The position numbers and the translations under genes were made by a program. From an uncultured Elusimicrobia bacterium (GTDB taxonomy: Bacteria > Elusimicrobiota > Endomicrobiia > DTEH01), in NCBI GenBank assembly GCA_964561135.1, contig CAZLOB010000070.1, positions 3,248 through 67,247 of the forward strand: a DNA stretch of 64,000 nt, given 5' to 3'. Each line of letters begins with the position of its first letter. Positions within the stretch are counted from its first letter, which is position 1. Positions 1,095-18,170 of this stretch are shown here, piece after piece. Under the pieces are notes generated by a model. That model saw only the letters and a list, made by a program, of their open reading frames with translations, made no database searches and was not told the origin of the DNA.

Positions 1095-1123
1095 TTGACA
1101 TTTTTGAAATAATGTATTATAAA
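1095..1123 (+). promoter_or_regulatory. sigma70-type promoter (TTGACA, 17-nt spacer, TATAAA)
   Basis: TTGACA at 1095-1100, 17-nt spacer, TATAAA at 1118-1123, about 55 nt upstream of the riboswitch P1 helix. Confidence 0.55.
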
Positions 1124-1180
1124 TAGTAATTAGAAGAGGAAAAAAATTTAGAAATTAGTTCTTTGTTAAAGTTTTGTTTC

Positions 1181-1256
1181 GGCCCGTATAATCTGCAAAA
1201 ATATGGTTTGTAGAGTTTCTACGGGACGAACCGTAAACTTGTCTCTGCTACGGGCC
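1181..1256 (+). promoter_or_regulatory. purine riboswitch aptamer, guanine-type (C at the specificity position)
   Basis: P1 ggcccgta(1181-1188)/tacgggcc(1249-1256). J1/2 tataat. P2 ctgcaaa/tttgtag with loop atatgg. J2/3 agtttctac. P3 gggacga/ttgtctc with loop accgtaaa. C1248 lies directly 5' of P1-3'. Near-identical in the conserved joints and loops to the B. subtilis xpt aptamer. Confidence 0.88.
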
Positions 1257-1339
1257 AGCAGGACACATATAACCCTATAGGCAGGTTGAAAGCCTATTTT
1301 TTTTAATTTGTGTCTGCTGGCCCGTAGAGAAGTTTTTTT
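1248..1339 (+). terminator. riboswitch expression-platform hairpin plus U7 (overlaps the P1 3' strand)
   Basis: ctacgggccagcaggacaca (1248-1267) pairs with tgtgtctgctggcccgtag (1309-1327): 19 bp with one bulge. tct/aga extends the stem. ttttttt at 1333-1339. Confidence 0.6.
1277..1304 (+). terminator. small hairpin plus U8 inside the platform loop (pause site or weak terminator)
   Basis: ataggc(1277-1282)/gcctat(1292-1297), 9-nt loop, followed by a T run to 1304. Confidence 0.3.
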
Positions 1340-1348
1340 GTTCTTGAA

Positions 1349-1412
1349 GGACCAGGGAACATACAGGTTCTGCGCATCTTACGAAAATGTTTGTTCCCTG
1401 GTCTTTTTTTTT
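1349..1412 (+). terminator. third leader hairpin plus U9
   Basis: ggaccagggaaca (1349-1361) pairs with tgttccctggtc (1392-1403), then nine T (1404-1412). The loop is large (~30 nt). It overlaps the ORF-track start at 1387. Confidence 0.45.
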
Positions 1413-1470
1413 ATATATATTGGTAATTTTGGCTACGAGAGCAATAAATCTTTTCTTTCTAGTTTATTTT

Positions 1471-4400
1471 ATGAAAATTAAAGTTTTATTAGCTTTTGTT
1501 TTATTCTTTGTATCATCTTCCACTTCTTATACTGCTAACTTATTAAACAACGCAGGATTTGACGAACTTCCTGCATTAACAGGATGGACACGTAGTGGAA
1601 CACTTTCAAGCGGTGTTGTAACTTCACCTGTTACAAATGCTCCGTATGCAGCAAGGATTTCTACATCCGCTTCTACAGGAAATAAAGCTTTATATCAAAA
1701 TGTGAATGTGTATGAAGGTAAAAGATATGTTTTATCAGGTTATGTATACTTAGTTGTTGCGCAAGGAGGTGAATCTGTCGGGTTAGGACTGAAACCCGGA
1801 GGAGGTGGTGTTGCATCAAGCTGGTTTCCAGATGTTTCAAATTCAACATCAGCAACTACTCAAGATAGATGGGTATATTTAACACTAAGTACAAAAGTCC
1901 CTTTTGGTGTGTCAACTTATGGTATTAATGTATATCTTCGTACTTCAGGTGCGCTATCAACATGGGCTACTGGATATTTTGACGATATTTCTTTTGTATT
2001 CATAAGTTCGCCACCAGGAAAAGTCACAAATTTTGTTGCTGAGACAGGAAGAGTTGGTGGAGAGATAAATTTATCATGGGTCTGTGCAACTGCTACTATT
2101 GGATATGAAGATGATTTACCGCCAGGATGTTCTTTTTATATACAATACGCAAGTTGGACAGGGGTGAACTTTTCAACATTGACTCTTCCTAACCCACCAC
2201 CAGGTGTGTATCATATATGGATACCAACAGGTCCTGTGGTTTATGGAACAAATTGTTACTACACAATAGCTGGTCTTCAAGAAGGTGTAACTTATTATTT
2301 TAGAATTTGGGTAATAGATAATTCTGGTAACTGGTCCGAGATTTCTGACAGTGCAACAACACAGGCTCAAATTACACCACAACCACCAAGTAATTTAGAT
2401 GTTTTTTCAATATCTTCATCAACAATAAGGCTTAAATGGACACCTTCAAATGCTGTATGGTACAGAATTGAACATTCATCAGTATCTAATTCTGAAAGTT
2501 GGGTTTTTAGGTCAACTGTAGTAGCAAAAGCAGGTGAGTATATAGATGATAATTTAGTTCCGAGTTGTACTTATTGGTATAGAATGTTTGGTATTAATTC
2601 TGCAGGTATTGTGAATTGGTATCAGCCAAGCAATATAGTAAAAACAATAACTTATCCTGCAGCACCAATAAATTTTACTACACAAACAATCTCAGCAACC
2701 TCAATTGTTTGGATATGGGAACCTATTGGTTATGCTGATGGGTTTATAATCTATCAAGCAACATCACCAAATACAGAAGTAGTAAAAATTCCGTTTGGTA
2801 TTAATACTTACGAAGAAACAGGTCTTTCAACAAACACTGCGTATGGTAGGTATATTCGTGCGTTTAACAGTAGTGGTTTCAGTGAATTATCAGCTAAAAC
2901 TACTGTTTATACATTAGCAGCGACACCTGTAAACCTTTCGTTTATTGCTGTACACTATACAAGTGTAACTTTTAGTTGGTCTGCTAATGGTAATCCTTTA
3001 GGAACAAGATATGAAGTGTCACAATCAATTGATAATTTCCAAACTAATTTTTCTACTCCTATTCCTTACACCTATGAAACCGTTGTGACTATAAGTGACC
3101 TTGTTCCTTCAACTACTTATTATTTTAGAGTTAGAGCGTTTAATAATGATGATGTGCCTACAAGTTTTTCTATAGTTATAAACACGACAACACTATCTCT
3201 ACCACCACCAGATATTTGTATCACAGAAGTTTTAGCAAACGATTCTCATTCTACTGAAGGTCCTGGCGAGTTTGTAGAAGTTTACAACCGTGGCTTGGTA
3301 GAAGTAGATTTAGCAGGTATGTTTTTATGTGGCGAAGGTGATACTAACGATAATATTGTTGATTACACAGGCCATAATGATTTAGGTCAGCCTGGGACTA
3401 TACTTTATCCGGGATGGTACGCTCTTATTGTAGACCCTGACTATGACGGATGGTATAATGATTGTATCCAACAGCATGCCGATTTAAATAAACTGATAAT
3501 GTTAACAATACACCAAGATAGTACTTTAGGTAGTAGTAGATTAGCCAACACTTTTGAGTCAGTATGGATAGTTTCAGGAACTGTTGTTTTAACTTCGTTT
3601 ACTTGGGTTTCAGATGCAGGTAATGGTAAATCTTGGGAAAAGATAGATTATTTGGGTCCAGCAATTGACAGGTCTGATTCATGCAACTGGGCTGTGTCAA
3701 CACATCAGTCAGATAATAATTCTTATTGCACACCTGGATTTTTAAACAGTGTATCAGGAAGCGGTCCACCACCGTTACTACCGTCTCAAGAAGATATAAA
3801 CCCCTCAGATGTTGTTATAAACGAATTTTTATATGATGCTGTTTCCACAGATAATGGTAATGAATGGATTGAGTTATATAACAATCTTTCAACAATGAGT
3901 GTAAATCTTGCTGGTTGGAAGATACAAAAATCTACAGGTCCTACATTAGATGTTGCTGTATGGACAGATTTGTTTGTAATAACTTCTGGCAGTATTTCTC
4001 CTAATGGATACTTTTTATGTGCACAATCAACCGCTGCAGTAAAATATCAAGCAGATTTTACATATTCTGACTCAGCAACAATGAACAATTCCGCTCCGTC
4101 TGCAATACGATTGGTTACACCTTCAGGTAAAGAGATCGACAGGGTAGCGTATGGTGGTGCAAGGTCAGACAATTTAGCAGAAGCTGATAAAGCAACGGTT
4201 GGTGCTTCTGTAGGACAAAGTTTGTCAAGATCTCCTGATGGAAAAGATACTAATAATAACTACAACGACTTTATAATGTTATCAAACCCTACACCTACAA
4301 ATTCATCAGGTCCTGACAAGATACCTCCTGCTTCAATTACTGACCTTGCTGCAGAAACAGGACAAAATCCAGGTGAGATTATTCTTAGTTGGACAGCACC

Positions 4401-7400
4401 TGGTGATGATGGTTTATTGTATAACAACACTAAAGAAGCATATTATATTGTAAAATATGCTACTTACCCTGTAAAAGAGTCTACAACCATATGGTGGCAA
4501 CAAGCAGTAGAATATGTTCAACAATGGAATGTTGCATCACAGGGGCTGAAAGAACAAAAAGTTTTACAAGGGTTCATCCCAGGAACAACTTATTATTTTG
4601 CTATAAAAACAGTTGATGATAGTAGGAATGTATCAGATATTGATATCAATGCACAAGATCTTTCAACACAAGCAAAAGCTTATGCACAAGTTGGTTCCAT
4701 TGGTTCTTTAATACGGATAAATGAAGTTGCACCTGACCAAACTTCTACTGCAGGATATGATTGGATTGAATTCTATAACGCGTCGACACAAGCAATAAAT
4801 GTTTTCGGATGGAAGATATATGAAGTGTATACGAGTTCAACAGAACCAATTGAAATAATAGAAGCAAATTGGTTCTTCCCAGCAAACAGTTATCTTGTGT
4901 TAAGATTTGGTCAACAACAAAGAAATATGACAGTGCCACAACAAATATCGCCAAATTGTTACGAACTTTATACAGATAAACCGGGCCTTGCCGCAACTGA
5001 TAACATTATAGTTTTAGCTGATAAAAATGACAATTGGATAGATGTTGTTTGTTATACAGATAGAAGTGGAAGTATATCAAATGCTACTCGGTTCCGACAA
5101 GCATACAACTATGCTGTTTCTATAAATGAATGGTATGGACCCTATGCAGATGAGACAAACGATGATGAAATAGAATACTGTTGTGCATCAACATTGTTTA
5201 TGTCATCAGACAGGTCTTTAGCACGGGATGAATCTTCAACCGACGGAACAAACCCGTCTGTTAACGAATGGTATTTAACTCTAACACTGACATGTGGTGC
5301 ACCTAATTCAGGTATAGACAAAATACCACCAGCCGCTGTTACAACACTACAAGCAACTGCTGGCCCTAACCGTGGACAAGTGAAACTTTCCTGGATATCA
5401 GTTGGTAATGATGATTATACAGGCACAGCAGCAGGATATATGTTAAGATTTAATACATTTCCTATTACAGAAGAAAACTTCTTTCATTCATCAACAAATG
5501 CTGACAGAATCTCAAAAGATAAAAAAACAGATACTATCTATATGAAACCAAAAATAGCTGGAAAAATTGAAACAACTGTCGGTGTATTACCTGTTGGACA
5601 AACTTATTATTTTGCATTAAAAGTATTAGATGAACGTGTTAACTTTTCAGCAATATCTAATGTAGTGTCTTTTGTCCCACCGAATGTTGTTGGGTCTAAT
5701 ATAAGAATAAACGAATTCGCAGTATTAGAATCAACACATACAGGTGGTGATTGGGTTGAGTTGTATAACGCGTCAGAAGATCCTGTTAACATTAAAGGGT
5801 GGACACTGTGGGGTATAAAAGTAGCAGAAACAACTCCGTCTAAGATAAAAAAGTTTCCTGATATTACCTTAGCTCCAAAAGATTATCTTGTGGTAAACTG
5901 TGTCTTGGGGACGGATGAAACAACTTCAAAAGGTGAAAATGGATATTGGGATGTGTACACAAATTATGATATAAAAGGGTTTGACGGTGTTTTATTTTTA
6001 ACTGATGAAGGTTTTAGTAGTGATTATGATAATATAGTAGATTTTGTAGCATATACATCTGGTGGTGTTTCCTCGTGGAAGGATATATGGAATACAGCAT
6101 GTGATTGTAATCAATGGTCACCATATATAAATACTGATGCTGAAGGTGTAAACTACGCAGTAGATTGGTCTTCAGGGCAAACAGGTTTCTCTTTAGGTCG
6201 GGATAGGTTTTCAACTGATAATGACAATATTCTCCATAATGCAAGAGATGATTGGAAATTATTTCGTGTTCCAACAAAAGGATATCAAAATGATGATATC
6301 CCACCTGCTGCTATTACTTATATTGTTGCAACTTATGGTGAAACAGAAGGTTCGATTAAACTTACATGGATAGTACCTGGTGATGATGAGTTCATTGGGG
6401 TAAATTATGGCAAGTATGAGATAAAATATGCTACATTTACAGTTGAAACTTCATCAACAGTATGGTGGCAACAGATTTCTAAAAGAAGTGAATACAGTGG
6501 GGTTGTTGAAGTTAAAATAGGTGTTGATATTTCAACAACGCAACCATATGAAACTGTAAGTTATACAATTACAAGATTGTTCCCAGGGTTAACTTACTAC
6601 TTTGGAATAAGGACATACGATGATATAGGAAATGTTTCTGAGTTAGATTTGTATTTATCAAACAACGAGCCTGTTTTTGCAGTAGCGTTTGATACAATAC
6701 CTGCAAAAGTTCAAAATCTTAATTTCTTTGTAAAAAACAAAACTATAGAATTTAGCTGGGATAAAAATAAAGAACTTGATTTTGACCGTTATGAGATATA
6801 CTGTGATTCAGGGGTGGGATTATTCTTTGTTAGTGCTACTACAAATACTTGGTTTGAACACAAAGGATTAAAAAATGGGCTAACCTACTATTATGAACTT
6901 TATGCAGTAGATATTAAACAAAACAAAAGTTTACCAACTTTTGGTTACACAATACCAAAAATGTCACCTCCGACAAAACTTTCTGCCGAACATTATGGTT
7001 GGTATGTAAATCTTGAATGGCAACATTCAGTAGATTATACTGCTGATAATTTCTTAATGTATAAAATATATCGTAGTAGTTCTCAACACGGTTCTTATGT
7101 AAGTATATCAACTACTACTAATAATTTTTATAAAGATAACAATATTCAAAAAGGCAGTTGTTATTACTATTATATTGTATGTGTAGATAATGATTACATT
7201 GAAAGCGAACTTTCAAACATTGCAGTAGCTGTACCTGATCTTATTTCGCCAAAATTTGTACATATTTCAAAACTAACTTCTCGTGATTTAGCTAAAGATA
7301 TTGCAAAAATTGACATTAAAGTTGTAGATGACAGGTTTGAAGAAGGAGATAGACAAGGTAAATTAGTTTCTTTAGAAGGAAAATATAAAGTTATTGGTTC

Positions 7401-7848
7401 TCAAGAAAAATATAGTGTAAAATTTGATCCAGATTTTATCGCAGGTTTAAAAGAATATACTGGTCAAGCAGAATTTGACTTCACTTTGATAACAATTGGT
7501 GATAAAGGTATAGAATATCAATTTATTGCAAAAGATGAAGTTAATATATCATCTTTTCCAATAGATGGAAGTTGGTATAAAGTTGAACTGCCTAAAGACC
7601 TACCTCAACAAAAGTTTATAACTGACCAAAACCCAGAGGTTGTTTTTGGTAGCAACGTTGAAGAAGTTATAATTTATGACCAATTTGGTAATAAAGTTTG
7701 GGGGAAAACTAAACAGTTTGAAAATCAACTGATAGTATGGAAAGGGAAAGATAAAAATGATAAAAATGTAGAATCAGGTACGTATATATATCAAATTAAA
7801 ACAAAAGATGGGAAACGTAAGTATGGTGTAGTGATTGTAGTGAAGTGA
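1471..7848 (+). CDS. giant secreted surface protein: CBM-like N-domain, FN3-like repeats, four lamin-tail-domain (LTD) modules, C-terminal FlgD-Ig/T9SS-CTD-like tail
   Basis: Track ORF 1387..7848. Start moved to ATG 1471 (MKIKVLLAFVLFFVSSSTSYTA signal-like). LTD motifs: ITEVLAND..EFVEVYN, INEFLYD..EWIELYN, RINEVAP..DWIEFYNAS, RINEFAV..DWVELYNAS. FN3-like YYFRVRAFN and YYFAIKTVDD. Tail ..GTYIYQIKTKDGKRKYGVVIVVK. Confidence 0.85.
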   Translation: MKIKVLLAFVLFFVSSSTSYTANLLNNAGFDELPALTGWTRSGTLSSGVVTSPVTNAPYAARISTSASTGNKALYQNVNVYEGKRYVLSGYVYLVVAQGGESVGLGLKPGGGGVASSWFPDVSNSTSATTQDRWVYLTLSTKVPFGVSTYGINVYLRTSGALSTWATGYFDDISFVFISSPPGKVTNFVAETGRVGGEINLSWVCATATIGYEDDLPPGCSFYIQYASWTGVNFSTLTLPNPPPGVYHIWIPTGPVVYGTNCYYTIAGLQEGVTYYFRIWVIDNSGNWSEISDSATTQAQITPQPPSNLDVFSISSSTIRLKWTPSNAVWYRIEHSSVSNSESWVFRSTVVAKAGEYIDDNLVPSCTYWYRMFGINSAGIVNWYQPSNIVKTITYPAAPINFTTQTISATSIVWIWEPIGYADGFIIYQATSPNTEVVKIPFGINTYEETGLSTNTAYGRYIRAFNSSGFSELSAKTTVYTLAATPVNLSFIAVHYTSVTFSWSANGNPLGTRYEVSQSIDNFQTNFSTPIPYTYETVVTISDLVPSTTYYFRVRAFNNDDVPTSFSIVINTTTLSLPPPDICITEVLANDSHSTEGPGEFVEVYNRGLVEVDLAGMFLCGEGDTNDNIVDYTGHNDLGQPGTILYPGWYALIVDPDYDGWYNDCIQQHADLNKLIMLTIHQDSTLGSSRLANTFESVWIVSGTVVLTSFTWVSDAGNGKSWEKIDYLGPAIDRSDSCNWAVSTHQSDNNSYCTPGFLNSVSGSGPPPLLPSQEDINPSDVVINEFLYDAVSTDNGNEWIELYNNLSTMSVNLAGWKIQKSTGPTLDVAVWTDLFVITSGSISPNGYFLCAQSTAAVKYQADFTYSDSATMNNSAPSAIRLVTPSGKEIDRVAYGGARSDNLAEADKATVGASVGQSLSRSPDGKDTNNNYNDFIMLSNPTPTNSSGPDKIPPASITDLAAETGQNPGEIILSWTAPGDDGLLYNNTKEAYYIVKYATYPVKESTTIWWQQAVEYVQQWNVASQGLKEQKVLQGFIPGTTYYFAIKTVDDSRNVSDIDINAQDLSTQAKAYAQVGSIGSLIRINEVAPDQTSTAGYDWIEFYNASTQAINVFGWKIYEVYTSSTEPIEIIEANWFFPANSYLVLRFGQQQRNMTVPQQISPNCYELYTDKPGLAATDNIIVLADKNDNWIDVVCYTDRSGSISNATRFRQAYNYAVSINEWYGPYADETNDDEIEYCCASTLFMSSDRSLARDESSTDGTNPSVNEWYLTLTLTCGAPNSGIDKIPPAAVTTLQATAGPNRGQVKLSWISVGNDDYTGTAAGYMLRFNTFPITEENFFHSSTNADRISKDKKTDTIYMKPKIAGKIETTVGVLPVGQTYYFALKVLDERVNFSAISNVVSFVPPNVVGSNIRINEFAVLESTHTGGDWVELYNASEDPVNIKGWTLWGIKVAETTPSKIKKFPDITLAPKDYLVVNCVLGTDETTSKGENGYWDVYTNYDIKGFDGVLFLTDEGFSSDYDNIVDFVAYTSGGVSSWKDIWNTACDCNQWSPYINTDAEGVNYAVDWSSGQTGFSLGRDRFSTDNDNILHNARDDWKLFRVPTKGYQNDDIPPAAITYIVATYGETEGSIKLTWIVPGDDEFIGVNYGKYEIKYATFTVETSSTVWWQQISKRSEYSGVVEVKIGVDISTTQPYETVSYTITRLFPGLTYYFGIRTYDDIGNVSELDLYLSNNEPVFAVAFDTIPAKVQNLNFFVKNKTIEFSWDKNKELDFDRYEIYCDSGVGLFFVSATTNTWFEHKGLKNGLTYYYELYAVDIKQNKSLPTFGYTIPKMSPPTKLSAEHYGWYVNLEWQHSVDYTADNFLMYKIYRSSSQHGSYVSISTTTNNFYKDNNIQKGSCYYYYIVCVDNDYIESELSNIAVAVPDLISPKFVHISKLTSRDLAKDIAKIDIKVVDDRFEEGDRQGKLVSLEGKYKVIGSQEKYSVKFDPDFIAGLKEYTGQAEFDFTLITIGDKGIEYQFIAKDEVNISSFPIDGSWYKVELPKDLPQQKFITDQNPEVVFGSNVEEVIIYDQFGNKVWGKTKQFENQLIVWKGKDKNDKNVESGTYIYQIKTKDGKRKYGVVIVVK

Positions 7849-7926: not shown

Positions 7927-8272
7927 TGAACAAAATAAATAATAAAGAATTAAATTTTGAGAATTTAGAAGTGTATCAAAATTACTAAAAATTTTCCTAA
8001 ACAAATACAATTTTCTTTAGCAGACCAATTAAGAAGAGCATCGTTGTCAATTTGTAATAACATTGCAAAAGGATGTGGCAACACACGATAAAAGAAAAGA
8101 ATTGTTTTACAATTACGTTTTAAACTCTGCAAGAGAATATTTCCCTGGTTTAGAAATTACTCTAAAACAAAATTTGATAACTAATAAAATATATTCAGGT
8201 TTAAGGGAGGAATGTTTGATTATTTGTAAAATGTTAAAAAAGTTAATTATCTCATTAGATAAAACTAGAATA
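7927..8272 (+). pseudogene. four-helix-bundle protein (23S rRNA IVS protein / Avd family), frameshifted
   Basis: Three frames together give MNKINNKELNFENLEVYQN / KNFPKQIQFSLADQLRRASLSICNNIAKGCGNT / DKRKELFYNYVLNSAREYFPGLEITLKQNLI..ECLIICKMLKKLIISL. This matches the family pattern LEVWQ..FPK.E.y.L..QLrRAa.SI..NIAEG. At least two frame breaks. Confidence 0.6.
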
Positions 8273-11716: not shown

Positions 11717-12735
11717 ATAAAAAATTCTTTTTTATTTTATTTTTTTTAATTTTCCCATTTATCGTTCACTCTTTACCACCATTAATAATAACAGAAGTTG
11801 CACCAGGTGAAGCATCAACAAAAGATTGGATTGAAATTTTTGTTTCTTCTTCAGGTAATTATAACGGATATAAAATCTACAGTGGTTATCCAAAAAGAGT
11901 AATAAAAATCTTACCTTCAAGAGAATATAAAAGAGGTGATATCATAGTAATCATGATGAACACTTCTTTAGAAGATGCGCAAACAAAACAAAATTATTGG
12001 ATATTTTATTCTACTGATACAACAGGGCTTTATGATTCTGAGGGTTTTGTGTATATTACTACTCCTTATGACAACTGGATCGATGCAGTTGGTTGGTCAA
12101 ACAGGGATGGTTCTATAGCAAAAGATGCAATAGACGCTTATAACGAAATGAAACAAAACAATATGTGGAAAGAAGGTCCTCAAGTCGCTGACGGGAATAA
12201 CGATGTTGAAGTACAGAACTCTTTGGTTGACTGGTCATTAGGTGCAAAAACAGATGCTGCGTCTATACAAAGACGGAAAGATTTTTTTGGCTTACCAATG
12301 GATGCTGACTCAATCTATGATTGGTATTATTCAAAAATAGCAACTTTTGGATACGGATATAAAGAAGTTGTTTCAGAAACACAAAAAATAGTTGAAGTTG
12401 ATAAAAACACAAATCCGTTTTGTCCTGAGGATATAAACAATAGTTTTGTGAAAATAAATTTTAATATAGAAGATTTTGATGCAAAAAAAACTATAGTTAT
12501 TTACGATATCACAGGCAAAGAAATTATAAAACTATTAGATAAAGATAGATTACCCAATGGCGACCTTTCAACATATTCTTCAGTGAGGGCAGGAAGTATA
12601 ACTTGGGATGGTAGAGATTCATCCTCTAAACGTGTTCCAACTGGTGTATATATTGTATATTTTGAAGCGTATAATCCTACAAATGGTAAAAGATACATTA
12701 GTAAAGATGTTGTTATTGTAGGGAGGAAGTGGTGA
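11713..12735 (+). CDS. secreted lamin-tail-domain protein with FlgD-Ig/CTD-like tail
   Basis: Signal peptide MNKKFFFILFFLIFPFIVHS. LIITEVAPGEASTKDWIEIFVSS and NWIDAVGWSNRDGS match LTD modules 3 and 4 of the giant protein. Tail TIVIYDITGKEI..GVYIVYFEA..DVVIVGRKW. Confidence 0.75.
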   Translation: MNKKFFFILFFLIFPFIVHSLPPLIITEVAPGEASTKDWIEIFVSSSGNYNGYKIYSGYPKRVIKILPSREYKRGDIIVIMMNTSLEDAQTKQNYWIFYSTDTTGLYDSEGFVYITTPYDNWIDAVGWSNRDGSIAKDAIDAYNEMKQNNMWKEGPQVADGNNDVEVQNSLVDWSLGAKTDAASIQRRKDFFGLPMDADSIYDWYYSKIATFGYGYKEVVSETQKIVEVDKNTNPFCPEDINNSFVKINFNIEDFDAKKTIVIYDITGKEIIKLLDKDRLPNGDLSTYSSVRAGSITWDGRDSSSKRVPTGVYIVYFEAYNPTNGKRYISKDVVIVGRKW

Positions 12736-12920: not shown

Positions 12921-14375
12921 ATGAACTTTAAACTAATTTATATCTACATATTTATACATTTACTTATTCACACATTTACTACTTATCTTTATCCTTTATT
13001 TGAAGAAAAAGATCTTTTTGCAAACACTGCAGCGTTATGTAATGCGTATACAGCTGCTGATGACAATGTTGTTTGTGTATATTATAACCCAGCAGGTATT
13101 TTCAATATACCAAAAGGTGGTTTCTATTTTTCAAATACAAAATTTTATAGTATTGACGAACTTGCATCAAATACAATATCTGTTTCTTTAGATGTTAAAC
13201 ATTTTGGCAAAGTTGGTTTTTTGTATAATATTTTTGGTTTTGATTTGTATAAAGAAAACTTATTAAAATTTGTTTATGCGAACAGTATTTTAAGAAAGAT
13301 TTCGTTTGGTATAGGAATTAATTCTTTATCTGTGAATATAAAAAACTATGGTTCTAAAAGTTTCCTAAGTATTGATTTAGGTGTTTTAGCAGAAGTTACA
13401 AGAAGTTTTCTTTTAGGATTTTATATAAAAAATTTTGATATACCAAAAGTTGCTGAAGATGAAATTGTTACACATACACTTGTTACAGGAGCGAAAATTG
13501 CTCCTTTAAAAGATGTGTCAACATATATTGATGTTGTAAAAAAAACAGAACAAGATGTTTTTGCAAGAATTGGCGAAGAAATAAAACTTAATATAATAGA
13601 TAGTTTGATAACAATATTTCGTTGTGGTGTTGAAATAGCAACAAAGGTCAAACCTGCAAAATATGCGGTTGGTTTCGGGTTAGGATATAAAATAGGTTCT
13701 TCAGAAATTATAATTGATTATTCTTATTTGTTACACACAATTTTAGGTAGCCAATATCTTGTTTCTTTAAGCATAAGTTTTGGTAAAAAAGAAAAAGAGT
13801 TTTTTGAAGAAATAAAACCTACAGGACAAAAAAGAAAAGCAGCGGTCAAAAAAATAGAACTTCAACCAAAATCTATAAATATTAATACTGCAACTATAGA
13901 AGAACTTGCAGAACTGCCTGGTATTGGTCCATCAACTGCACAAAAAATTGTTGAATATAGACAAAAGATAGGAAAATTTATTTCTGTTGAACAGCTGCTT
14001 GAGGTACCTCGTATCGGTACTCTTACGCTACAAAGAATAAAACCATATATAACTGTTGAAGTAGAAGAAAAACAAATACAAGAAGTAAAACCAGAAGTTG
14101 AAAAGAAACAAAAAGAAGAACAGTTGTTTATTCCACCACTTGATCTACCATCACAAGAAAAAATAGAAGTAAAAGAAGAAAAACAAAAGTTTAATTTGAA
14201 TACTATAACAGAGGAAGAGTTAATTAATTTAGGTTTCTCTTCAACTGCTGCAAAAAATGTTATAAGATATAGAATAAAAGTTGGTAAATTTAAATCAGTT
14301 GATGAACTATATAAAATACCATTTGTTGAGAAATCGTTGGTTGATAAACTTAAAGAAAAGTTTTATGTTGAATAA
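12921..14375 (+). CDS. outer-membrane beta-barrel (FadL/PorV-like motif) fused to two ComEA-type helix-hairpin-helix DNA-binding modules
   Basis: N-terminal half: NAYTAADDNVVCVYYNPAGIFNI plus strand pattern. C-terminal half: NINTATIEELAELPGIGPSTAQKIVEYRQKIGKFISVEQLLEVPRIG and LNTITEEELINLGFSSTAAKNVIRYRIKVGKFKSVDELYKIP, separated by K/E-rich linkers. Confidence 0.75.
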   Translation: MNFKLIYIYIFIHLLIHTFTTYLYPLFEEKDLFANTAALCNAYTAADDNVVCVYYNPAGIFNIPKGGFYFSNTKFYSIDELASNTISVSLDVKHFGKVGFLYNIFGFDLYKENLLKFVYANSILRKISFGIGINSLSVNIKNYGSKSFLSIDLGVLAEVTRSFLLGFYIKNFDIPKVAEDEIVTHTLVTGAKIAPLKDVSTYIDVVKKTEQDVFARIGEEIKLNIIDSLITIFRCGVEIATKVKPAKYAVGFGLGYKIGSSEIIIDYSYLLHTILGSQYLVSLSISFGKKEKEFFEEIKPTGQKRKAAVKKIELQPKSININTATIEELAELPGIGPSTAQKIVEYRQKIGKFISVEQLLEVPRIGTLTLQRIKPYITVEVEEKQIQEVKPEVEKKQKEEQLFIPPLDLPSQEKIEVKEEKQKFNLNTITEEELINLGFSSTAAKNVIRYRIKVGKFKSVDELYKIPFVEKSLVDKLKEKFYVE

Positions 14376-14378: not shown

Positions 14379-16598
14379 ATGGTTGTAATATTATTCTTAA
14401 TTTCAATTTTTTGTTTTCAAAACTTATTCTGTGTAGAATTCAAACTTAATTCTTCAACACATACAACAGAAAAATTTTTGTCTGAAGAAGAACAAACATT
14501 AGAAGAATTATATGAAGAAATTGATAAAATAGAAGAAGAAACAGTTAGTGTTTATTTTCAAGAAGAGATACATTTATATCAAGAAGATGAAGGTTTTTTA
14601 GAATCATTACAGCAAAACCCGTTGGATTTGAACACTGCAACTTATCTTCAACTTAAATCTCTTCCTGGTATAACTGATGAGTTAGCACGGAAAATTGTCC
14701 GTTATAGAAGGTTAAATCCGTTTAAATCAAAATCTGAACTTAAAAAAATTGTTGATGCAGAGGTTTATAATAAAATATCACCTTTTGTTATTGTAGATAA
14801 AGTAAAAAAAGCAGCACAACTTAACGGACAAGTAAGAATAAGATTTTATCCTGAAGAAAAGACAGAAATTAAAACATATTATCAACCTAAAGAAAAGTTT
14901 GAACAACCATATTATTTTTACAATAGGACACAACTTTCTTATGGTGATAAACTTTCGTTAGGATATGTTTTTTTACATAAACCTAATGAAAACGTCCCTT
15001 CTTTAGAAAGTTTCAGTTATCTACTTCGTAAATGGTGGGTAAGGTTAAACTCAATAGGTCTGTTCGATAAAATAATTTTTGGTAATTACAAAGCAGGGTT
15101 TGGTTATGGTATGGTGTTTCACGAGAACGCTGCTGTATCAAATTTAGTAGGTTCTGTTAAACCGAAGATGCGTGGGTTAAGAGAAGATAAAAGTACTGCG
15201 GATAATGCATATCTTTATGGTTTGGGTTTTGAAAGTAATATAGGTAATCTTGAATATTCCATTTTTTATTCGCAGAAAGATTTGATCACAAAAACAACTG
15301 TGTTTACAGAAGTTGTTCAAACAGATGAAGAAGAGCAAACAATTGTTTCTTCCTATACAATTGACGATTTAATTGACATTCGTAACGACTATGTTGAATA
15401 TGATAAATATTTGTTAGATTATGATGTAAACATAGAAACATCAACAATTAACAAACTGCCAAAAAGAAAAGTTCAAGAACAACTTGTAGGAATAAATTTT
15501 TTGTTCCCAATAGATGTATTTAAAATAGGTTTTTGTGGGTATTATGCAAGATATGACAACCCTTTTGATCCTGATAAAACAAAAGTTTCTGGCTATGATC
15601 TTGTAGACAAGTATTCAGAACGATGGAGGTATGTTTATCGCGGGGATAACTTAGTAGTAGGAAGTTTATATTTTGAGTTTCCTTTAGATAAACTTATATT
15701 TTTTAGTGAATTAGCACAAAGTAAAGCATATTTTTCACAACAGTCAACTTCTACATTTTCTTCACAACTTGGTAGTGGAGTAAACCTGGGTATTCTTTTA
15801 TTTTTAAGTCGAACAAAGTTTTATTTGTTATACACATATCTTGAACCAACTTTTTATTCACCATTAGGTATACCAATAAAAATTTATGATTATCCTAACA
15901 GTCAACGAGGTATAAAAATTGGTAATAGTTATAAATTCAAAAATGGTGAGATAAACTTTTCATATGGTACAGCTGAATTATTTAAAGGTATCTGGAGTGG
16001 ACATTGGAGTTCTGAACAACCACGGTTCCCATCAAGATATAACGAAATTTTTTTTGAAACAAAATATAAAGTTTTTAAAGATATTGAACTTTATTTCAGA
16101 ACAATAGATGATTTAAGAGAAAGATACATAGACTTAAAAACTTATGGTCTTTCATTAGAACAGCAACTTGTTCAAACACAACAGTTAAGGATAAAAAATA
16201 GGTATCAAGTGTCAACAAGTATATTAAAAGACACAATATTAAAGATAAGATATGACCATCAATGGCAAAAGTTTATAGATTACGGAAAATCATATTATGG
16301 TGAACAACTTTGTGCTGAACTAAAATATAAATTTTGGGGTTTTACAATAAACAGCAGATTCTGTATTTTTAATTCTGATGAACAAGTATATTTAAGTTAT
16401 CTTGAGCCAAAATGGTATAACTTGTATATGTTAGAAACTGAAGAAAATGCTGGGGGAGATAAATTTTATTTTACTTTTTCATACAAAATTTCAAAAAATA
16501 AAATTTTGTGGCTCAGGTATAGATATAAGTTTTATACAACAAAAGTTGTTGATCCGACAGATACTGAATTTAGAATACAAATAGATTATGGGTTTTGA
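14379..16598 (+). CDS. ComEA-type HhH module fused to a large predicted outer-membrane beta-barrel
   Basis: Signal-like N-terminus, acidic stretch, LDLNTATYLQLKSLPGITDELARKIVRYRRLNPFKSKSELKKIV, then ~600 aa of Y/G/F-rich alternating sequence ending ..EFRIQIDYGF (terminal aromatic residue). Confidence 0.7.
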   Translation: MVVILFLISIFCFQNLFCVEFKLNSSTHTTEKFLSEEEQTLEELYEEIDKIEEETVSVYFQEEIHLYQEDEGFLESLQQNPLDLNTATYLQLKSLPGITDELARKIVRYRRLNPFKSKSELKKIVDAEVYNKISPFVIVDKVKKAAQLNGQVRIRFYPEEKTEIKTYYQPKEKFEQPYYFYNRTQLSYGDKLSLGYVFLHKPNENVPSLESFSYLLRKWWVRLNSIGLFDKIIFGNYKAGFGYGMVFHENAAVSNLVGSVKPKMRGLREDKSTADNAYLYGLGFESNIGNLEYSIFYSQKDLITKTTVFTEVVQTDEEEQTIVSSYTIDDLIDIRNDYVEYDKYLLDYDVNIETSTINKLPKRKVQEQLVGINFLFPIDVFKIGFCGYYARYDNPFDPDKTKVSGYDLVDKYSERWRYVYRGDNLVVGSLYFEFPLDKLIFFSELAQSKAYFSQQSTSTFSSQLGSGVNLGILLFLSRTKFYLLYTYLEPTFYSPLGIPIKIYDYPNSQRGIKIGNSYKFKNGEINFSYGTAELFKGIWSGHWSSEQPRFPSRYNEIFFETKYKVFKDIELYFRTIDDLRERYIDLKTYGLSLEQQLVQTQQLRIKNRYQVSTSILKDTILKIRYDHQWQKFIDYGKSYYGEQLCAELKYKFWGFTINSRFCIFNSDEQVYLSYLEPKWYNLYMLETEENAGGDKFYFTFSYKISKNKILWLRYRYKFYTTKVVDPTDTEFRIQIDYGF

Positions 16599-16746
16599 TT
16601 TTCTTGTTTTTTTAAAGCTGCGGAGGGGGTGTGCCCAATATAGTAATAATAAGTTGTGTTTAAACACTTATACTTTATTTTATATTCGGAAAATTGTTTG
16701 TAAAATGTCAGAATAAAAATTTTTTAAAAATTTTTTAAAAATTTTG

Positions 16747-16775
16747 TTGACAAAACACAAAATTTTGTTCTATAT
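16747..16775 (+). promoter_or_regulatory. sigma70-type promoter for the pilin gene with a palindromic spacer
   Basis: TTGACA 16747-16752, 17-nt spacer containing the palindrome acaaaattttgt (16757-16768), ctatat 16770-16775. Phased A/T tracts upstream (16716-16746). Confidence 0.45.
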
Positions 16776-16844
16776 ATATTATTAGGGCAGGGGTGGTTAT
16801 TTATACATTCCCCAAAACTATGCCCTGAAAGGAGGTGAATAAAA

Positions 16845-17339
16845 ATGATAAAAAAATCTAAAGGTTTTACTTTGATAGAATTAATGGTAGTAGTTGTTAT
16901 ACTTGGTATACTTGCGGTAGTTGTTGCGCCGAGAATCCCTGACCTTGTCAAAAAAGCAAAAGAAGGTGCTACAAAAGGTTCTCTCTCTACACTCAGGTCT
17001 ACTTTGAACATATATTATAGTGATACTGAAGGATTTTATCCAGCAACTCATTGGAGTAAGGATGATGCTGCGGATGGATATAAAGATGTTAGTAATGTTC
17101 TTCACGAATCTTTAGTGCCAAAATATATAAAAGCAATACCTATGGTTAAATTACCTACTGCTCATAAGGACGATTCTGATAGAGTAATTGTATACAAAAA
17201 TCTTCCTTCAACTCTTACAGATGAAGATTTGGGCTATGGTTGGGGATATGGTTCCGTATATGGGACTGAGACATATGGAAATATAATTGTTAACTGTATA
17301 CATACAGATACTAGTGAGAAATATTGGTATGAATATTGA
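16845..17339 (+). CDS. type IV pilin / pseudopilin with prepilin N-terminal methylation motif
   Basis: MIKKSKGFTLIELMVVVVILGILAVVVAP. Strong SD aggagg 16830-16835. Confidence 0.9.
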   Translation: MIKKSKGFTLIELMVVVVILGILAVVVAPRIPDLVKKAKEGATKGSLSTLRSTLNIYYSDTEGFYPATHWSKDDAADGYKDVSNVLHESLVPKYIKAIPMVKLPTAHKDDSDRVIVYKNLPSTLTDEDLGYGWGYGSVYGTETYGNIIVNCIHTDTSEKYWYEY

Positions 17340-17349
17340 TCATTTAAGA

Positions 17350-17391
17350 TAGGCAGCTTGGTGGTTAGCCAGGCTCCCTATTCTCGTTTTT
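17350..17391 (+). terminator. rho-independent terminator after the pilin gene
   Basis: taggcagcttgg / ccaggctcccta stem (one mismatch, one G-U), loop tggttag, T-rich tail ttctcgttttt. Confidence 0.5.
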
Positions 17392-17408
17392 ATTAATAAA
17401 AAAAATAA

Positions 17409-18170
17409 ATGTTTTTATTCTTAGTATTTATATTAGGTCTTATCTTTGGTAGTTTTGCAAATGTTTTAATTTATAGGATACCGCGCAAAATTTCTATCCT
17501 TTATCCAAATTCGTTTTGTCCACATTGTGGCTCATCTATAGTTTGGTATGATAATATACCACTATTAAGCTATATTTTTCTTTCTGGTAGATGTAGGATT
17601 TGTAATAAAAAAATTTCTTTACAATATCCCATTGTTGAACTTTTATGTGCAATTTTATCTGTGTTTGCATATTTGAAATTTGGTATTGATAAAATGTGGA
17701 TTTTTTTTAATTTATTTTTTATTCTTTTGGTTATAAGTGTTATTGATATTCAAACTACAGAGATACCTAATGTATTATCTTTTTATCTAATAATTTCTGG
17801 AATATTTTTTTCAATTTTTAATCCAGCCTTAGGTAAAAAAGTTTTGATAGGAGATACTATGTATATAAGATTAGTAAACTCGTTGATAGGTGGAATCTTT
17901 GGATTTGTAATTTTTTTCTCAATACAACTTTTAGGAGACAAAATTTTTAAGAGACCTATTTTAGGTGGTGGCGATGTAAAACTTTTAAGTGGTATTGGTA
18001 CATATTTAGGTGTTCAATCGTTGTTGAAAATTATATTTTTTTCATCGTTAGTAGGGACAATTTATGTGTTTATTTTAAGCATTGTAAAGAAAAGAAAACT
18101 TTTTGGCGAGTACATCCAGTTTGCACCGTTTATTTCTATTGGTTGTCTAATATATGTATTCTTACTTTAA
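17409..18170 (+). CDS. pilD: prepilin peptidase (A24 family)
   Basis: Cys-rich N-terminal CPHCGS..CRICNK, multiple TM segments, GGGDVKLL motif. Confidence 0.88.
   Translation: MFLFLVFILGLIFGSFANVLIYRIPRKISILYPNSFCPHCGSSIVWYDNIPLLSYIFLSGRCRICNKKISLQYPIVELLCAILSVFAYLKFGIDKMWIFFNLFFILLVISVIDIQTTEIPNVLSFYLIISGIFFSIFNPALGKKVLIGDTMYIRLVNSLIGGIFGFVIFFSIQLLGDKIFKRPILGGGDVKLLSGIGTYLGVQSLLKIIFFSSLVGTIYVFILSIVKKRKLFGEYIQFAPFISIGCLIYVFLL

What the first reader, a model, noticed from the sequence alone, without database searches (positions are those of the whole stretch)
1095..18170. Candidate riboswitch-headed surface locus for extracellular DNA/nucleotide capture: tail-bearing cargo genes alternate with barrel genes, then ComEA-barrel fusions and a pilin module
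Seen in sequence: the gene order is promoter, guanine aptamer, giant LTD/FN3 protein, barrel (8231), PLD-family two-HKD enzyme, barrel (10733), small LTD protein, barrel fused to 2x ComEA-HhH, ComEA-HhH fused to a large barrel, pilin, and prepilin peptidase. The three secreted proteins share a C-terminal beta-sandwich-like tail (..GVVIVVK, ..KKIVVK, ..DVVIVGRKW). Each is immediately followed by a barrel gene, with overlapping or closely abutting stop/start codons at 10733-10736 and 11713-11716. Established knowledge: ComEA HhH modules bind dsDNA during uptake. The PLD superfamily includes Nuc-type nucleases. Bacterial LTDs recur in extracellular nucleases of the ExeM/NucH type. In T9SS, PorV-like barrels carry CTD cargo. 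Inference: this is a cell-surface machine that tethers cargo to cognate barrels and binds, cuts and hands over extracellular DNA, under purine control. I know of no described system with this combination.
Basis: partly seen in the sequence, partly recalled or inferred. Interest (0 to 1): 0.9.

Follow-up and report, generated by a model that had tools for sequence, protein, structure and literature searches.

The report
Outer-membrane DNA capture and uptake locus
An uncultured Endomicrobia bacterium carries a conserved gene array, here headed by a purine riboswitch, that pairs secreted proteins (including a DNA-cutting-type enzyme) with outer-membrane barrels, two of which are fused to the DNA-binding module ComEA, making it a candidate answer to how these bacteria get DNA across their outer membrane.

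Summary
A bona fide purine riboswitch (54.1 bits, gathering score 37) precedes the array. The array is: a giant CBM/FN3/LTD protein; a PorV-like barrel; a two-HKD Nuc/NucT-type PLD; a second PorV-like barrel; an LTD protein; a PorV-like 14-strand barrel fused to two ComEA modules; one ComEA module fused to a roughly 26-28-strand barrel of no known family; a pilin; and a prepilin peptidase. All three secreted proteins end in T9SS-type sorting domains.

The organism is an Endomicrobiia (Elusimicrobiota) bacterium. The array is syntenic across many Endomicrobiia species. Its core also recurs in two distant lineages, one Caldisericota-like: giant protein plus barrel, then LTD protein, PorV-ComEA, ComEA-large barrel.

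- Cargo-barrel pairing is a known T9SS principle (type B CTD with PorP/SprF).
- The ComEA modules are almost certainly periplasmic, not on the surface.
- The riboswitch is confined to one subclade and is deleted in close relatives. It looks like a pbuE-style ON switch and is followed by an unexplained second terminator.
- The pilin has its own promoter.
- The PLD, the pilin pair and the riboswitch are lineage-specific accessories.

Best reading: an outer-membrane system for capturing, cutting and taking up DNA. The ComEA-barrel fusions appear undescribed. No function has been tested experimentally.

The parts
1095..1123 (+). Sigma-70-like promoter: TTGACA, 17-nt spacer, TATAAA
   Evidence: Read from the sequence. 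The TTGACA is also present in L001, L090 and L091.
1164..1270 (+). Purine riboswitch aptamer. P1 pairs 1181-1188 with 1249-1256. It has U22, U51 and C74 (c1248), and an atypical J3/1 of UGC.
   Evidence: Rfam RF00167, 54.1 bits against a gathering score of 37. Intact orthologous aptamers occur in L090 (57.0 bits) and L091 (54.8 bits).
1247..1339 (+). Long hairpin H1 followed by U7. Its 5' strand includes the P1 3' strand, and its apex is ACCC..GGCAGGUUGAAAGCC. It is the predicted aptamer-exclusive terminator.
   Evidence: Folding gives -66.8 kcal/mol with z -7.2. With the aptamer constrained the energy is -50.7 kcal/mol. The hairpin is conserved with compensatory changes, even in loci that lack the aptamer.
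1346..1413 (+). Second hairpin T2 (16-bp stem) followed by U9. It forms whether or not the aptamer is folded, and its role is unexplained.
   Evidence: Folding gives -31 kcal/mol with z -5.1. It forms in both states. The stem is conserved in L001, L004, L013, L090 and L091.
1471..7848 (+). Giant secreted protein: signal peptide, CBM_4_9, FN3 repeats, four Pfam LTDs plus further LTD-like modules, and a CHU_C/T9SS-type C-terminal sorting domain
   Evidence: Orthologues are found in L001, L002, L004, L007, L013-L015, L018, L092 and L093.
8231..9235 (+). Barrel 1: a PorV/PorQ/PorP-like outer-membrane barrel that follows the giant cargo gene
   Evidence: NF033709 E 5e-8. Of six orthologues, five hit PorV_fam and two hit PorP/SprF (E 9e-13). 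hhalign to the 484-aa family gives 99.3% probability. The same position is conserved in L092 and L093.
9336..10736 (+). Secreted two-HKD PLD-family enzyme of the nuclease branch, with a Por_Secre_tail-type sorting domain
   Evidence: PLDc_2 107.8 bits and Por_Secre_tail 26.2 bits. NucT E 1.3e-12. Zucchini/MitoPLD and Nuc are the nearest PDB sequences. The HxK and GSxN residues of both motifs are invariant.
10733..11716 (+). Barrel 2: a PorV/PorQ-like outer-membrane barrel that follows the PLD. The true start is probably near 10901.
   Evidence: hhalign gives 98.1% probability to the 484-aa family. Orthologues hit PorV_fam with E down to 7e-43. The L018 counterpart scores 149.4 bits against a cutoff of 90.
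11713..12735 (+). Small secreted protein: an LTD-like module plus a T9SS-type/FlgD-Ig sorting domain
   Evidence: BLASTP to the giant protein's LTD-like modules gives E 5e-11. The tail hits the C-termini of PorZ and PorU. In L004, L013, L014 and L015 it is fused to the PLD.
12921..14375 (+). PorV-like 14-strand barrel fused at its C-terminus to two ComEA HhH modules
   Evidence: AF2 model with pLDDT 77.5. Foldseek hits FadL and PorV, with 8gl6_F at rmsd 4.0 A. TIGR00426 scores 95 bits against a cutoff of 53.1. Orthologues are found in L092 and L093.
14379..16598 (+). One ComEA HhH module (residues 80-137) fused to a large barrel of about 26-28 strands that belongs to no named family
   Evidence: AF2 model with pLDDT 77. 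Only generic large-barrel fold matches were found. There are no PDB or Pfam sequence hits. All 10 distant homologues sampled, found with a barrel-only profile, carry HHH_3.
16745..16774 (+). Promoter-like site for the pilin gene (TTGACA, 18-nt spacer, TATATA), followed by a strong RBS, GGAGGTG
   Evidence: Read from the sequence.
16845..17339 (+). Type IV pilin / GspG-like pseudopilin
   Evidence: N_methyl 38.1 bits, TIGR02532 33.4 bits, and GspG E 2e-13.
17409..18170 (+). Prepilin peptidase (PilD type)
   Evidence: A24_N_bact 116.8 bits and Peptidase_A24 66.9 bits.
32486..34666 (+). ComEC, the inner-membrane DNA channel. It lies outside the finding but is the expected downstream partner.
   Evidence: Competence 198.4 bits plus Lactamase_B.

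Best explanation
This is a conserved outer-membrane system of Endomicrobiia and some other uncultured diderm lineages. It displays secreted proteins on dedicated barrels and couples them to periplasmic DNA receptors.

Shown here:
- Three Sec-exported proteins carry T9SS-type C-terminal sorting domains: the giant CBM/FN3/LTD protein, a Nuc/NucT-type PLD, and a small LTD protein.
- Each of these genes is followed by a paralogous PorV/PorQ/PorP-like barrel gene.
- The barrel that follows the small LTD protein carries two ComEA HhH modules at its C-terminus.
- The next gene fuses a ComEA module to a very large barrel of an uncharacterised family, and that family nearly always carries ComEA modules.

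Inferred:
- The cargos sit on the cell surface, bound non-covalently to their barrels, as type B CTD proteins bind PorP/SprF.
- The LTD proteins and the nuclease engage and cut extracellular DNA.
- DNA or fragments cross the outer membrane, possibly through the large barrel or with help from the adjacent pilin.
- The outer-membrane-tethered ComEA modules catch the DNA in the periplasm and pass it to ComEC, either for transformation or for nucleotide salvage.

In this subclade the first transcription unit is headed by a guanine-type riboswitch. The 3' half of its aptamer is also the 5' strand of a terminator-like hairpin. Purine binding should therefore allow read-through, which would make it a pbuE-style ON switch.
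For: Domains.

Barrels:
- hhalign probabilities between the three small barrels are 94-99%.
- Orthologues hit PorV_fam, PorQ and PorP.
- The AF2 model shows a 14-strand barrel whose closest folds are FadL and PorV.

Nuclease identity. PMC5714352 describes NucT as implicated in purine salvage and natural transformation.

Functional linkage:
- PLD and the LTD protein are fused in L004, L013, L014 and L015.
- ComEC-type MBL genes follow PLD-barrel in L003, L005 and L018.
- L005 carries adenosine and cytidine deaminases, a uridine-kinase-like gene, a dGTPase-like HD protein, a Na/Pi transporter and a HIT protein next to its PLD-barrel pair.
- L093 has a CTD-tagged MBL-fold protein and no PLD.

Conservation:
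- The full array is present in L001, L002, L006 and L009, and as far as the contig extends in L007.
- The core is conserved in L018, L092 and L093.

Large barrel: the family is rare, with 247 of 1.84 billion representatives. All 10 distant members sampled carry HHH_3, although the search profile contained no HhH.

Other DNA-uptake genes in the window: ComEC and RecA.

Riboswitch.
Against: - No experiment or transcript data exist for any part of the system.
- No T9SS translocon (SprA/Sov), PorU sortase or secretin lies in the 64-kb window. How the cargo, or DNA, crosses the outer membrane is therefore unknown.
- The window's own barrels score below NCBIfam cutoffs (32.8, no hit, and 29.5 bits against a cutoff of 90).
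- LTD binding to DNA is assumed, not established.
- L014 and L015 keep the CTD on the giant protein but have no barrel 1 after it.
- PLD, the pilin pair and the riboswitch are missing from distant versions. A nuclease is therefore not a fixed component.
- A strong hairpin followed by U9 (T2) comes after the riboswitch and forms in both aptamer states. The predicted ON logic alone therefore does not explain expression.
- The aptamer is deleted in the L001 lineage without loss of the operon.
Confidence: 0.55

Rival explanations
1. This is a surface adhesin and exoenzyme locus of a T9SS-like sorting system with no special relation to DNA. On this reading the giant CBM/FN3/LTD protein is an adhesin or glycan binder, the PLD is a phospholipase or general phosphodiesterase, and the ComEA-like HhH modules serve as generic periplasmic anchors.
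For: - The N-terminal CBM_4_9 and the many FN3 repeats are typical of glycan-binding surface proteins.
- L092 has an S8 peptidase followed by a PorP_SprF-like barrel in the same array. The barrels can therefore serve non-DNA cargo.
- The nuclease is not a fixed part of the core.
- HHH_3-like folds also occur in GspK and PsbU.
Against: - TIGR00426, the ComEA HhH repeat model, scores 95 bits, above its curated cutoff. The best PDB sequence hits are ComEA proteins.
- The large barrel family is almost always fused to ComEA modules.
- The PLD's nearest relatives are nucleases.
- ComEC-type MBL genes and nucleotide-salvage genes are neighbours in related loci.
- PLD is fused to the LTD protein in some lineages, and LTDs accompany extracellular nucleases such as ExeM (PMC6085458).
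Confidence: 0.15
2. The large HhH-barrel is the export translocon for the CTD cargos, a minimal functional counterpart of SprA/Sov, rather than a route for DNA import. On this reading the locus is a self-contained mini secretion-and-anchoring system, and its ComEA modules only position it.
For: - No SprA-like gene is present in the window.
- The large barrel is always next to CTD cargo and PorV-like genes.
- A lumen of about 26-28 strands could pass folded domains.
Against: - There is no detectable similarity to SprA or to any known translocon.
- The near-obligate fusion to a DNA-binding module has no rationale in protein export.
- T9SS core genes were not searched for genome-wide, so a conventional translocon may exist elsewhere.
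Confidence: 0.12
3. The riboswitch regulates only the giant gene, or only a short leader RNA, and has no functional link to the rest of the array. It would then be a recent, dispensable acquisition fused to a pre-existing leader hairpin.
For: - The aptamer is absent from L002, L004 and L013-L015 and is truncated in L001, L088 and L089, while the operon persists.
- H1 and T2 predate the aptamer or are independent of it.
- T2 forms regardless of aptamer state.
- Promoter-like sites lie before the pilin gene and inside barrel 1.
- There are gaps of 100-380 nt between several genes.
Against: - Three independent lineages keep an intact aptamer with compensatory changes.
- P1 is precisely interlocked with the H1 stem.
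- Purine-family riboswitches upstream of PLD, ComEC and endonuclease genes have a precedent (PMC8872408).
- The genes from the PLD to the small LTD protein overlap by 4 nt, which suggests co-translation within at least that block.
Confidence: 0.35

Closest known systems
T9SS type B CTD cargo with adjacent PorP/SprF-like barrel (SprB-SprF in Flavobacterium johnsoniae; PG1035-PorP in Porphyromonas gingivalis; PMC9143113)
   Same: Secreted proteins with a C-terminal beta-sandwich sorting domain are each encoded next to a PorV/PorP-superfamily outer-membrane barrel. The known function is non-covalent anchorage of the cargo on the cell surface.
   Different: - The phylum is Elusimicrobiota, for which I found no description of a T9SS.
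- No SprA/Sov, PorU or PorKLMN genes are in the window.
- One barrel carries ComEA modules, which no PorP or PorV is reported to do.
- The window's barrels score below the curated family cutoffs.
ComEA, the periplasmic DNA receptor of natural transformation (Vibrio cholerae, Neisseria, Bacillus, Thermus; PMC3879209, PMC13168374)
   Same: HhH repeat modules score above the TIGR00426 cutoff. The best PDB sequence hits are ComEA proteins (8dss, 8dfk, 2duy). ComEC is present in the same genome.
   Different: Known ComEA proteins are soluble in the periplasm or anchored in the inner membrane. Here the modules are covalently fused to outer-membrane barrels. One is at the C-terminus of a PorV-like barrel and one is at the N-terminus of a very large barrel.
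NucT of Helicobacter pylori and Nuc of Salmonella (PLD-family nucleases; PMC5714352)
   Same: It is an HKD-motif enzyme of the small nuclease branch. NucT is described as implicated in purine salvage and natural transformation, which matches the purine-riboswitch and ComEA context here.
   Different: The enzyme here has two HKD units in one chain, whereas the solved relatives Nuc and Zucchini/MitoPLD are 155-204-residue chains matched by one half of this protein. It also carries a T9SS-type sorting tail and a dedicated barrel partner. Its activity is untested.
[quoted passage not shown]
   Same: - It has the purine-family three-way-junction aptamer.
[quoted passage not shown]
- A terminator that overlaps the aptamer's 3' half, like the one here, is characteristic of the pbuE adenine ON switch (from my own knowledge).
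   Different: - The aptamer here keeps U51 and an A-U top pair in P1, which are nucleobase-type features, together with C74, which marks the guanine class. It is therefore neither 2'-dG-II nor an adenine sensor.
- J3/1 is UGC instead of AC.
- A second terminator, independent of the aptamer, follows.
ExeM/NucH-type extracellular nucleases with a lamin tail domain (PMC6085458; LTD-containing DNA-degradation loci in PMC8289736)
   Same: LTD modules are associated with secreted nucleases and with foraging on extracellular DNA. In L004-type loci, PLD and LTD are in one polypeptide.
   Different: The catalytic domain is PLD-type, not the endonuclease/exonuclease/phosphatase type. In the window the LTD modules are on separate proteins.

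Membership tests
Purine riboswitch (Rfam RF00167) | Three-way junction (P1, P2, P3) with conserved J1/2, J2/3 and J3/1 and L2-L3 loops, scoring at or above the gathering score | tested here: met
   54.1 bits against 37. Orthologues score 57.0 and 54.8 bits.
Purine riboswitch (Rfam RF00167) | Guanine class: C at position 74, together with U22, U47 and U51 | tested here: met
   C74 is c1248, and UAUAAUC and GUUUCUAC are intact. J3/1 is UGC instead of AC, so ligand specificity is not certain.
Purine riboswitch (Rfam RF00167) | Ligand binding and ligand-dependent control of transcription | not testable with these tools
   Only folding could be done. The terminator-like state has -66.8 kcal/mol and the aptamer state -50.7 kcal/mol, and the two are mutually exclusive.
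2'-dG-II riboswitch | C at position 51, a G-C junction-proximal pair in P1, and a 2-nt insertion in J3/1 (PMC8872408) | tested here: not met
   The aptamer has U51, an A-U top pair and a 1-nt insertion.
T9SS cargo (C-terminal sorting domain) | N-terminal signal peptide plus a C-terminal domain matching PF18962/TIGR04183 (type A) or PF13585/TIGR04131 (type B) at the curated cutoff | tested here: inconclusive
   - Giant protein: PF13585 27.8 bits (cutoff 27) is met, but TIGR04131 17.2 bits (cutoff 35) is not.
- PLD: PF18962 26.2 bits (cutoff 27) falls just short. Nearly all orthologues carry a precomputed PF18962 hit.
- Small protein: only FlgD_ig at 18 bits, plus hits to the C-termini of PorZ and PorU.
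- The three tails share a common motif.
T9SS (the system) | SprA/Sov translocon, PorK/L/M/N motor and ring, and PorU sortase present in the genome | not tested
   None is in the 64-kb window. No paper describing a T9SS in Elusimicrobia was found.
PorV/PorQ family (NF033709) | Score at or above the curated cutoff of 90 bits | tested here: not met
   The window barrels score 32.8 bits, no hit, and 29.5 bits. The positional counterpart in L018 scores 149.4 bits, and other orthologues reach E 7e-43. The window barrels are therefore divergent members of the superfamily rather than members by score.
PorV/PorQ family (NF033709) | 14-strand FadL-like barrel fold | tested here: met
   The AF2 model has 14 strands. 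Foldseek gives FadL at E 2e-8 and PorV 8gl6_F at E 5.9e-8, rmsd 4.0 A, TM 0.58. This was tested only for the 484-aa protein. For the other two barrels it rests on hhalign probabilities of 98-99%.
PLD-superfamily nuclease (Nuc/NucT/Zucchini branch) | HxK(x)4D(x)6GSxN motif(s), with nearest relatives among the nucleases | tested here: met
   There are two motifs: H125-x-K127...G139-S140-x-N142 and H302-x-K304...G320-S321-x-N323. All these residues are invariant in 16 homologues. The first motif has K in place of D. NucT scores E 1.3e-12, and the nearest PDB sequences are 4ggj and 1byr.
PLD-superfamily nuclease (Nuc/NucT/Zucchini branch) | Nuclease rather than phospholipase activity | not testable with these tools
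   Only context supports it: the fusion to LTD, ComEC-type MBL neighbours and salvage-gene neighbours.
ComEA | HhH repeat region (TIGR00426 / PF12836) at the curated cutoff | tested here: met
   The 484-aa protein scores TIGR00426 95 bits (cutoff 53.1) and HHH_3 125 bits. The 739-aa protein scores HHH_3 46.2 bits (cutoff 27).
ComEA | Full-length ComEA architecture (TIGR01259, cutoff 152) | tested here: not met
   The scores are 101.1 and 24.2 bits. The architecture differs because the modules are fused to outer-membrane barrels.
Type IV pilin and prepilin peptidase | Class III signal with a GFxxxE methylation motif; A24 peptidase with its N-terminal domain | tested here: met
   N_methyl 38.1 bits (cutoff 21.2) and TIGR02532 33.4 bits (cutoff 16.3), with the sequence KGFTLIELMVV. 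A24_N_bact scores 116.8 bits and Peptidase_A24 66.9 bits.
Lamin tail domain (PF00932) | Pfam match at the gathering score | tested here: met
   The giant protein scores 142.5 bits over four stretches. The small protein is not matched by Pfam but is homologous to the giant's LTD-like modules. Its orthologues in L092 and L093 hit PF00932.

The most novel reading that the evidence does not exclude
The ComEA-large-barrel protein is a previously unrecognised outer-membrane DNA conduit. It would work with the PorV-like barrel-ComEA protein and its surface LTD partner as a trans-envelope relay. This relay would import extracellular DNA without a PilQ secretin or a complete type IV pilus. That would explain how Endomicrobium, and other uncultured diderms carrying the same core, take up DNA.
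Probability: 0.25. Interest if true: 0.9.

Novelty: new variant of a known kind. Interest (0 to 1): 0.74.

Why it matters
DNA uptake across the outer membrane is understood only for the secretin and type IV pilus route. Stephens et al. (PMC8809381) state that Endomicrobium express comEC, dprA and recA. [quoted passage not shown]

This locus places ComEA modules on outer-membrane barrels, directly beside that same pilin-pilD pair and a surface nuclease. That gives concrete genes to test.

It also shows T9SS-style pairs of sorting domain and PorV-like barrel operating in phyla where no T9SS has been described. It defines a rare, unnamed large-barrel family that is almost always fused to a DNA-binding module.

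If the system turns out to be a DNA importer or forager, it would be relevant to horizontal gene transfer in insect-gut symbionts and to extracellular DNA turnover by uncultured bacteria.

Tried and rejected
1. Rfam at gathering score found no purine-family riboswitch in 19 related loci (L001-L009, L012-L018 and L088-L089) or in 10 PLD loci of Bacteroidota-type organisms. The idea that the riboswitch is a general feature of the system is therefore rejected.
2. An Rfam E-value scan of the leader found no known family for hairpins H1 or T2.
3. I considered whether H1 and T2 are copies of a dispersed repeat. The stem sequence occurs only in the leader, so this is rejected.
4. I looked by hand for an antiterminator pairing between the H1 3' strand and the T2 5' strand. 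At most about 6 bp with a bulge can form, and constrained folding keeps T2 intact. T2 therefore remains unexplained.
5. I asked whether the aptamer is 2'-dG-II. It is not, because it has U51 and an A-U top pair in P1.
6. Foldseek and hmmsearch of the large barrel against the PDB gave only generic matches to TonB-dependent receptors, ushers and MtrB (TM 0.3-0.48). There were no sequence hits, so no family can be assigned.
7. I tested strict one-cargo-one-barrel co-variation. It is supported by the contrast between PLD-LTD fusion loci and split loci. It is contradicted by L014 and L015, whose giant proteins keep the CTD without a barrel 1 after them.
8. Literature searches for a T9SS in Elusimicrobia found nothing relevant.
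9. Weinberg et al. 2017, the primary source for 2'-dG-II, is not held in the library. Its gene associations are cited second-hand from PMC8872408.

Full report
**1. What is in the sequence**

The window has about 29% G+C. Named homologues place it in the Endomicrobiia, phylum Elusimicrobiota.

The stated gene order is correct. Rfam finds a purine riboswitch at 1164-1270, scoring 54.1 bits against a gathering score of 37. A TTGACA-17-TATAAA promoter-like site at 1095-1123 precedes it.

The database matches for each gene come:

| Gene | Matches |
|---|---|
| Giant protein | CBM_4_9, FN3 repeats, four LTDs (142.5 bits), CHU_C tail (27.8 bits, cutoff 27) |
| 9336-10736 | Two PLDc_2 units plus Por_Secre_tail (26.2 bits, cutoff 27) |
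| 11713-12735 | LTD-like module homologous to the giant's (E 5e-11); tail matches the C-termini of PorZ and PorU |
| 12921-14375 | Two ComEA HhH modules (TIGR00426 95 bits, cutoff 53.1) |
| 14379-16598 | One HhH module |
| 16845-17339 | Pilin |
| 17409-18170 | Prepilin peptidase |

The three tails align with the T9SS-CTD/FlgD-Ig signature.

There are two corrections to the coordinates. The ATG at 1387 lies inside a hairpin, so the real start of the giant protein is probably 1471. The GTG at 10733 is probably upstream of the true start of barrel 2.

**2. The barrels**

- **Homology.** Orthologue alignments of barrel 1 and barrel 2, and the N-terminal half of the 484-aa protein, are homologous to one another. 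The hhalign probabilities are 94%, 98% and 99%.
- **Family scores.** The window copies score below NCBIfam cutoffs. Their orthologues reach PorV_fam E 7e-43, PorQ E 2.6e-23 and PorP/SprF E 9e-13. The L018 counterpart of barrel 2 scores 149.4 bits against a cutoff of 90.
- **Fold of the 484-aa protein.** An AF2 model (pLDDT 77.5) shows 14 strands followed by two HhH modules on disordered linkers. Its closest folds are FadL and T9SS PorV. Among the top hits, 8gl6_F has the lowest rmsd, 4.0 A.
- **Fold of the 739-aa protein.** The model (pLDDT 77) has one HhH module and a barrel of about 26-28 strands. That barrel matches only generic large barrels. It has no sequence match in the PDB or Pfam.

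Outer-membrane barrels have both termini in the periplasm (established knowledge). The ComEA modules of both proteins should therefore be periplasmic, not exposed on the surface. This is an inference.

**3. Conservation**

Using the PLD as anchor, the full array is found in L001 (76% identity), L002 (65%), L006 (85%) and L009. It is also found in L007 as far as that contig extends.

In L004, L013, L014 and L015 the PLD and the LTD protein are a single polypeptide of about 655 aa, and barrel 2 is missing. L004 and L013 therefore have two cargos and two PorV-like barrels, against three and three in the window. L014 and L015 break this pattern. Their giant proteins keep the CTD, but no barrel 1 follows.

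L003, L005 and L018 keep PLD-barrel followed by standalone homologues of the ComEC C-terminal MBL domain (E about 1e-41 to 1e-47). L005 is embedded among nucleoside and nucleotide salvage genes.

A barrel-only profile of the 739-aa protein finds only 247 relatives among 1.84 billion cluster representatives. All ten distant members sampled carry ComEA HhH modules, although the profile contained none.

Two of these distant members were examined in context: L092, and L093, whose protein cluster includes a Caldisericota MAG. Both have the same core. The giant protein is followed by a barrel 1 orthologue. Further on, the small LTD/CTD protein is followed by PorV-barrel-ComEA and then by the ComEA-large barrel. 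They have no PLD and no pilin pair. L093 has a CTD-tagged MBL-fold protein instead.

The core is therefore the LTD proteins, the barrels and the ComEA modules. The nuclease type, the pilin pair and the riboswitch are accessories.

**4. The leader**

The aptamer has U22, U51, C74 and an A-U top pair in P1. It is thus guanine-type and not 2'-dG-II, but its J3/1 is UGC (PMC8872408).

Its P1 3' strand is also the 5' strand of a long hairpin, H1 (1247-1329), which is followed by U7. The H1 state has -66.8 kcal/mol and the aptamer-constrained state -50.7 kcal/mol. In the aptamer state the U-run is no longer preceded by a stem. This is the pbuE-type ON design. The prediction is unverified.

A second hairpin with U9, T2 (1346-1413), forms in both states and is unexplained.

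Intact aptamers occur in the window (L087 is the same strain), in L090 and in L091. L001, L088 and L089 carry a 41-nt deletion that removes the P1 5' strand and most of P2. L004 and L013 have no aptamer, and their promoter directly abuts H1.

H1 has an invariant apical motif and shows compensatory changes at 6 pairs. It is a conserved leader RNA of unknown function, and the aptamer is attached to it in one subclade.

The pilin gene has its own promoter-like site and a strong RBS. Purine control probably does not reach it.

**5. Interpretation**

The best-supported model has four steps. All of them are inferred; only the parts and their conservation are shown.

1. The CTD cargos are displayed on their PorV/PorP-like barrels, as shown for type B CTD proteins and PorP/SprF (PMC9143113).
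2. The LTD proteins and a NucT-like nuclease act on extracellular DNA. NucT is described as implicated in purine salvage and natural transformation (PMC5714352).
3. DNA crosses the outer membrane by an unknown route, with the large barrel as a candidate.
4. The outer-membrane-tethered ComEA modules catch it and hand it to ComEC, which is encoded at 32486-34666.

A notable detail is that the barrel paired with the small LTD protein is the one carrying ComEA. That would link a surface protein and a periplasmic DNA receptor through a single membrane protein.

**6. Comparison with what is known, and novelty**

Cargo-barrel pairing is a known T9SS principle. Purine-family riboswitches upstream of PLD, ComEC and endonuclease genes have a precedent (PMC8872408).

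In the literature I could search, I found no description of any of the following:
- ComEA fused to outer-membrane barrels;
- this large-barrel family;
- a T9SS-style sorting pair in Elusimicrobiota.

Stephens et al. [quoted passage not shown] This locus supplies candidates for both.

I rate it a new variant of known kinds, with a real chance of about 0.25 that it is a new route for DNA across the outer membrane.

**7. Limits**

- There are no expression or biochemical data.
- T9SS core genes and secretins were not searched for genome-wide.
- Structure predictions rest on 18-20-sequence alignments.
- The strand count of the large barrel is approximate.
- The ON logic is derived from folding alone.
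- Statements about the pbuE design come from my own knowledge.

Noticed in passing
window 1257-1319 (apex of hairpin H1); also L001 ~1132, L004 ~3645, L013 ~3670, L090, L091: The motif ACCCnnnnGGC(G/A)GGUUGAAAGCC at the apex of the leader hairpin is nearly invariant, with a single G-to-A change in the window. It is conserved even in loci that have no purine aptamer. ACCC could pair with GGGU to form a pseudoknot. No Rfam family matches it. It may be an undescribed cis-regulatory RNA or a protein-binding site.
   Followed up: partly
window 1346-1413: A strong 16-bp hairpin followed by U9 sits between the riboswitch platform and the giant gene. It overlaps the ORF's nominal ATG at 1387 and forms in both aptamer states. 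How transcription gets past it is unexplained. In L001 the same ATG opens only a 25-codon ORF.
   Followed up: partly
L091 7623-7729 compared with L001 ~1040-1110 (also L088, L089): L091 has a short duplication (TATAATCTGCTAAA) upstream of its intact aptamer. L001, L088 and L089 look like a 41-nt deletion between the two copies. The deletion removes the P1 5' strand and most of P2. [quoted passage not shown]
   Followed up: yes
window 7927-8230: A decayed gene for a four-helix-bundle protein (23S rRNA intervening-sequence / bAvd-like type, TIGR02436) lies between the giant gene and barrel 1. In L002 it is intact and in frame with barrel 1. A fragment is also present in L006.
   Followed up: partly
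window 18136-18720 (- strand): A 194-aa ORF with a lipoprotein-like signal (…FLSNC) converges on the prepilin peptidase gene and overlaps its 3' end by 35 nt. It is conserved in this position in L001, L002, L004, L006, L009 and L013. It has no family match.
   Followed up: partly
window 32486-34666 and 38650-39513: ComEC lies directly after DnaE. A separate standalone homologue of the ComEC C-terminal MBL domain (E 1.4e-46) lies 4 kb further on. In L003, L005 and L018 such standalone MBL genes sit right after the PLD-barrel pair.
   Followed up: partly
window 8891-8920: A perfect 12/12 sigma-70 consensus (TTGACA, 18-nt spacer, TATAAT) lies inside the barrel 1 gene, 416 nt upstream of the PLD start. 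It may be an internal promoter.
   Followed up: no
L018 3580-4692; L092 4115-4780; L093 4931-6106: Proteins with a SpoVG domain recur inside the distant versions of the array but are absent from the window's version.
   Followed up: no
window 584-1003: A DUF192 gene lies immediately upstream of the leader. It is syntenic in L001, L004 and L013-L015. Its relation to the system is unknown.
   Followed up: no
L028 3341-4675 (Flavobacteriaceae MAG): A 444-aa protein with a weak ComEA HhH match lies about 700 nt downstream of a PLD+CTD homologue in a Bacteroidota genome. This hints that the PLD-ComEA association extends to phyla with a classical T9SS.
   Followed up: no
L002 2300-3200; L093 4236-4929 and 7109-7796: In L093, Pfam-annotated nucleotidyltransferase/HEPN-type gene pairs (toxin-antitoxin-like) are inserted within the array. 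In L002, small ORFs without Pfam hits lie between the leader hairpins and the giant gene.
   Followed up: no
window 35781-35854 (+) and 35995-36080 (-): Two convergent tRNA genes lie here. The second has a long variable arm.
   Followed up: no
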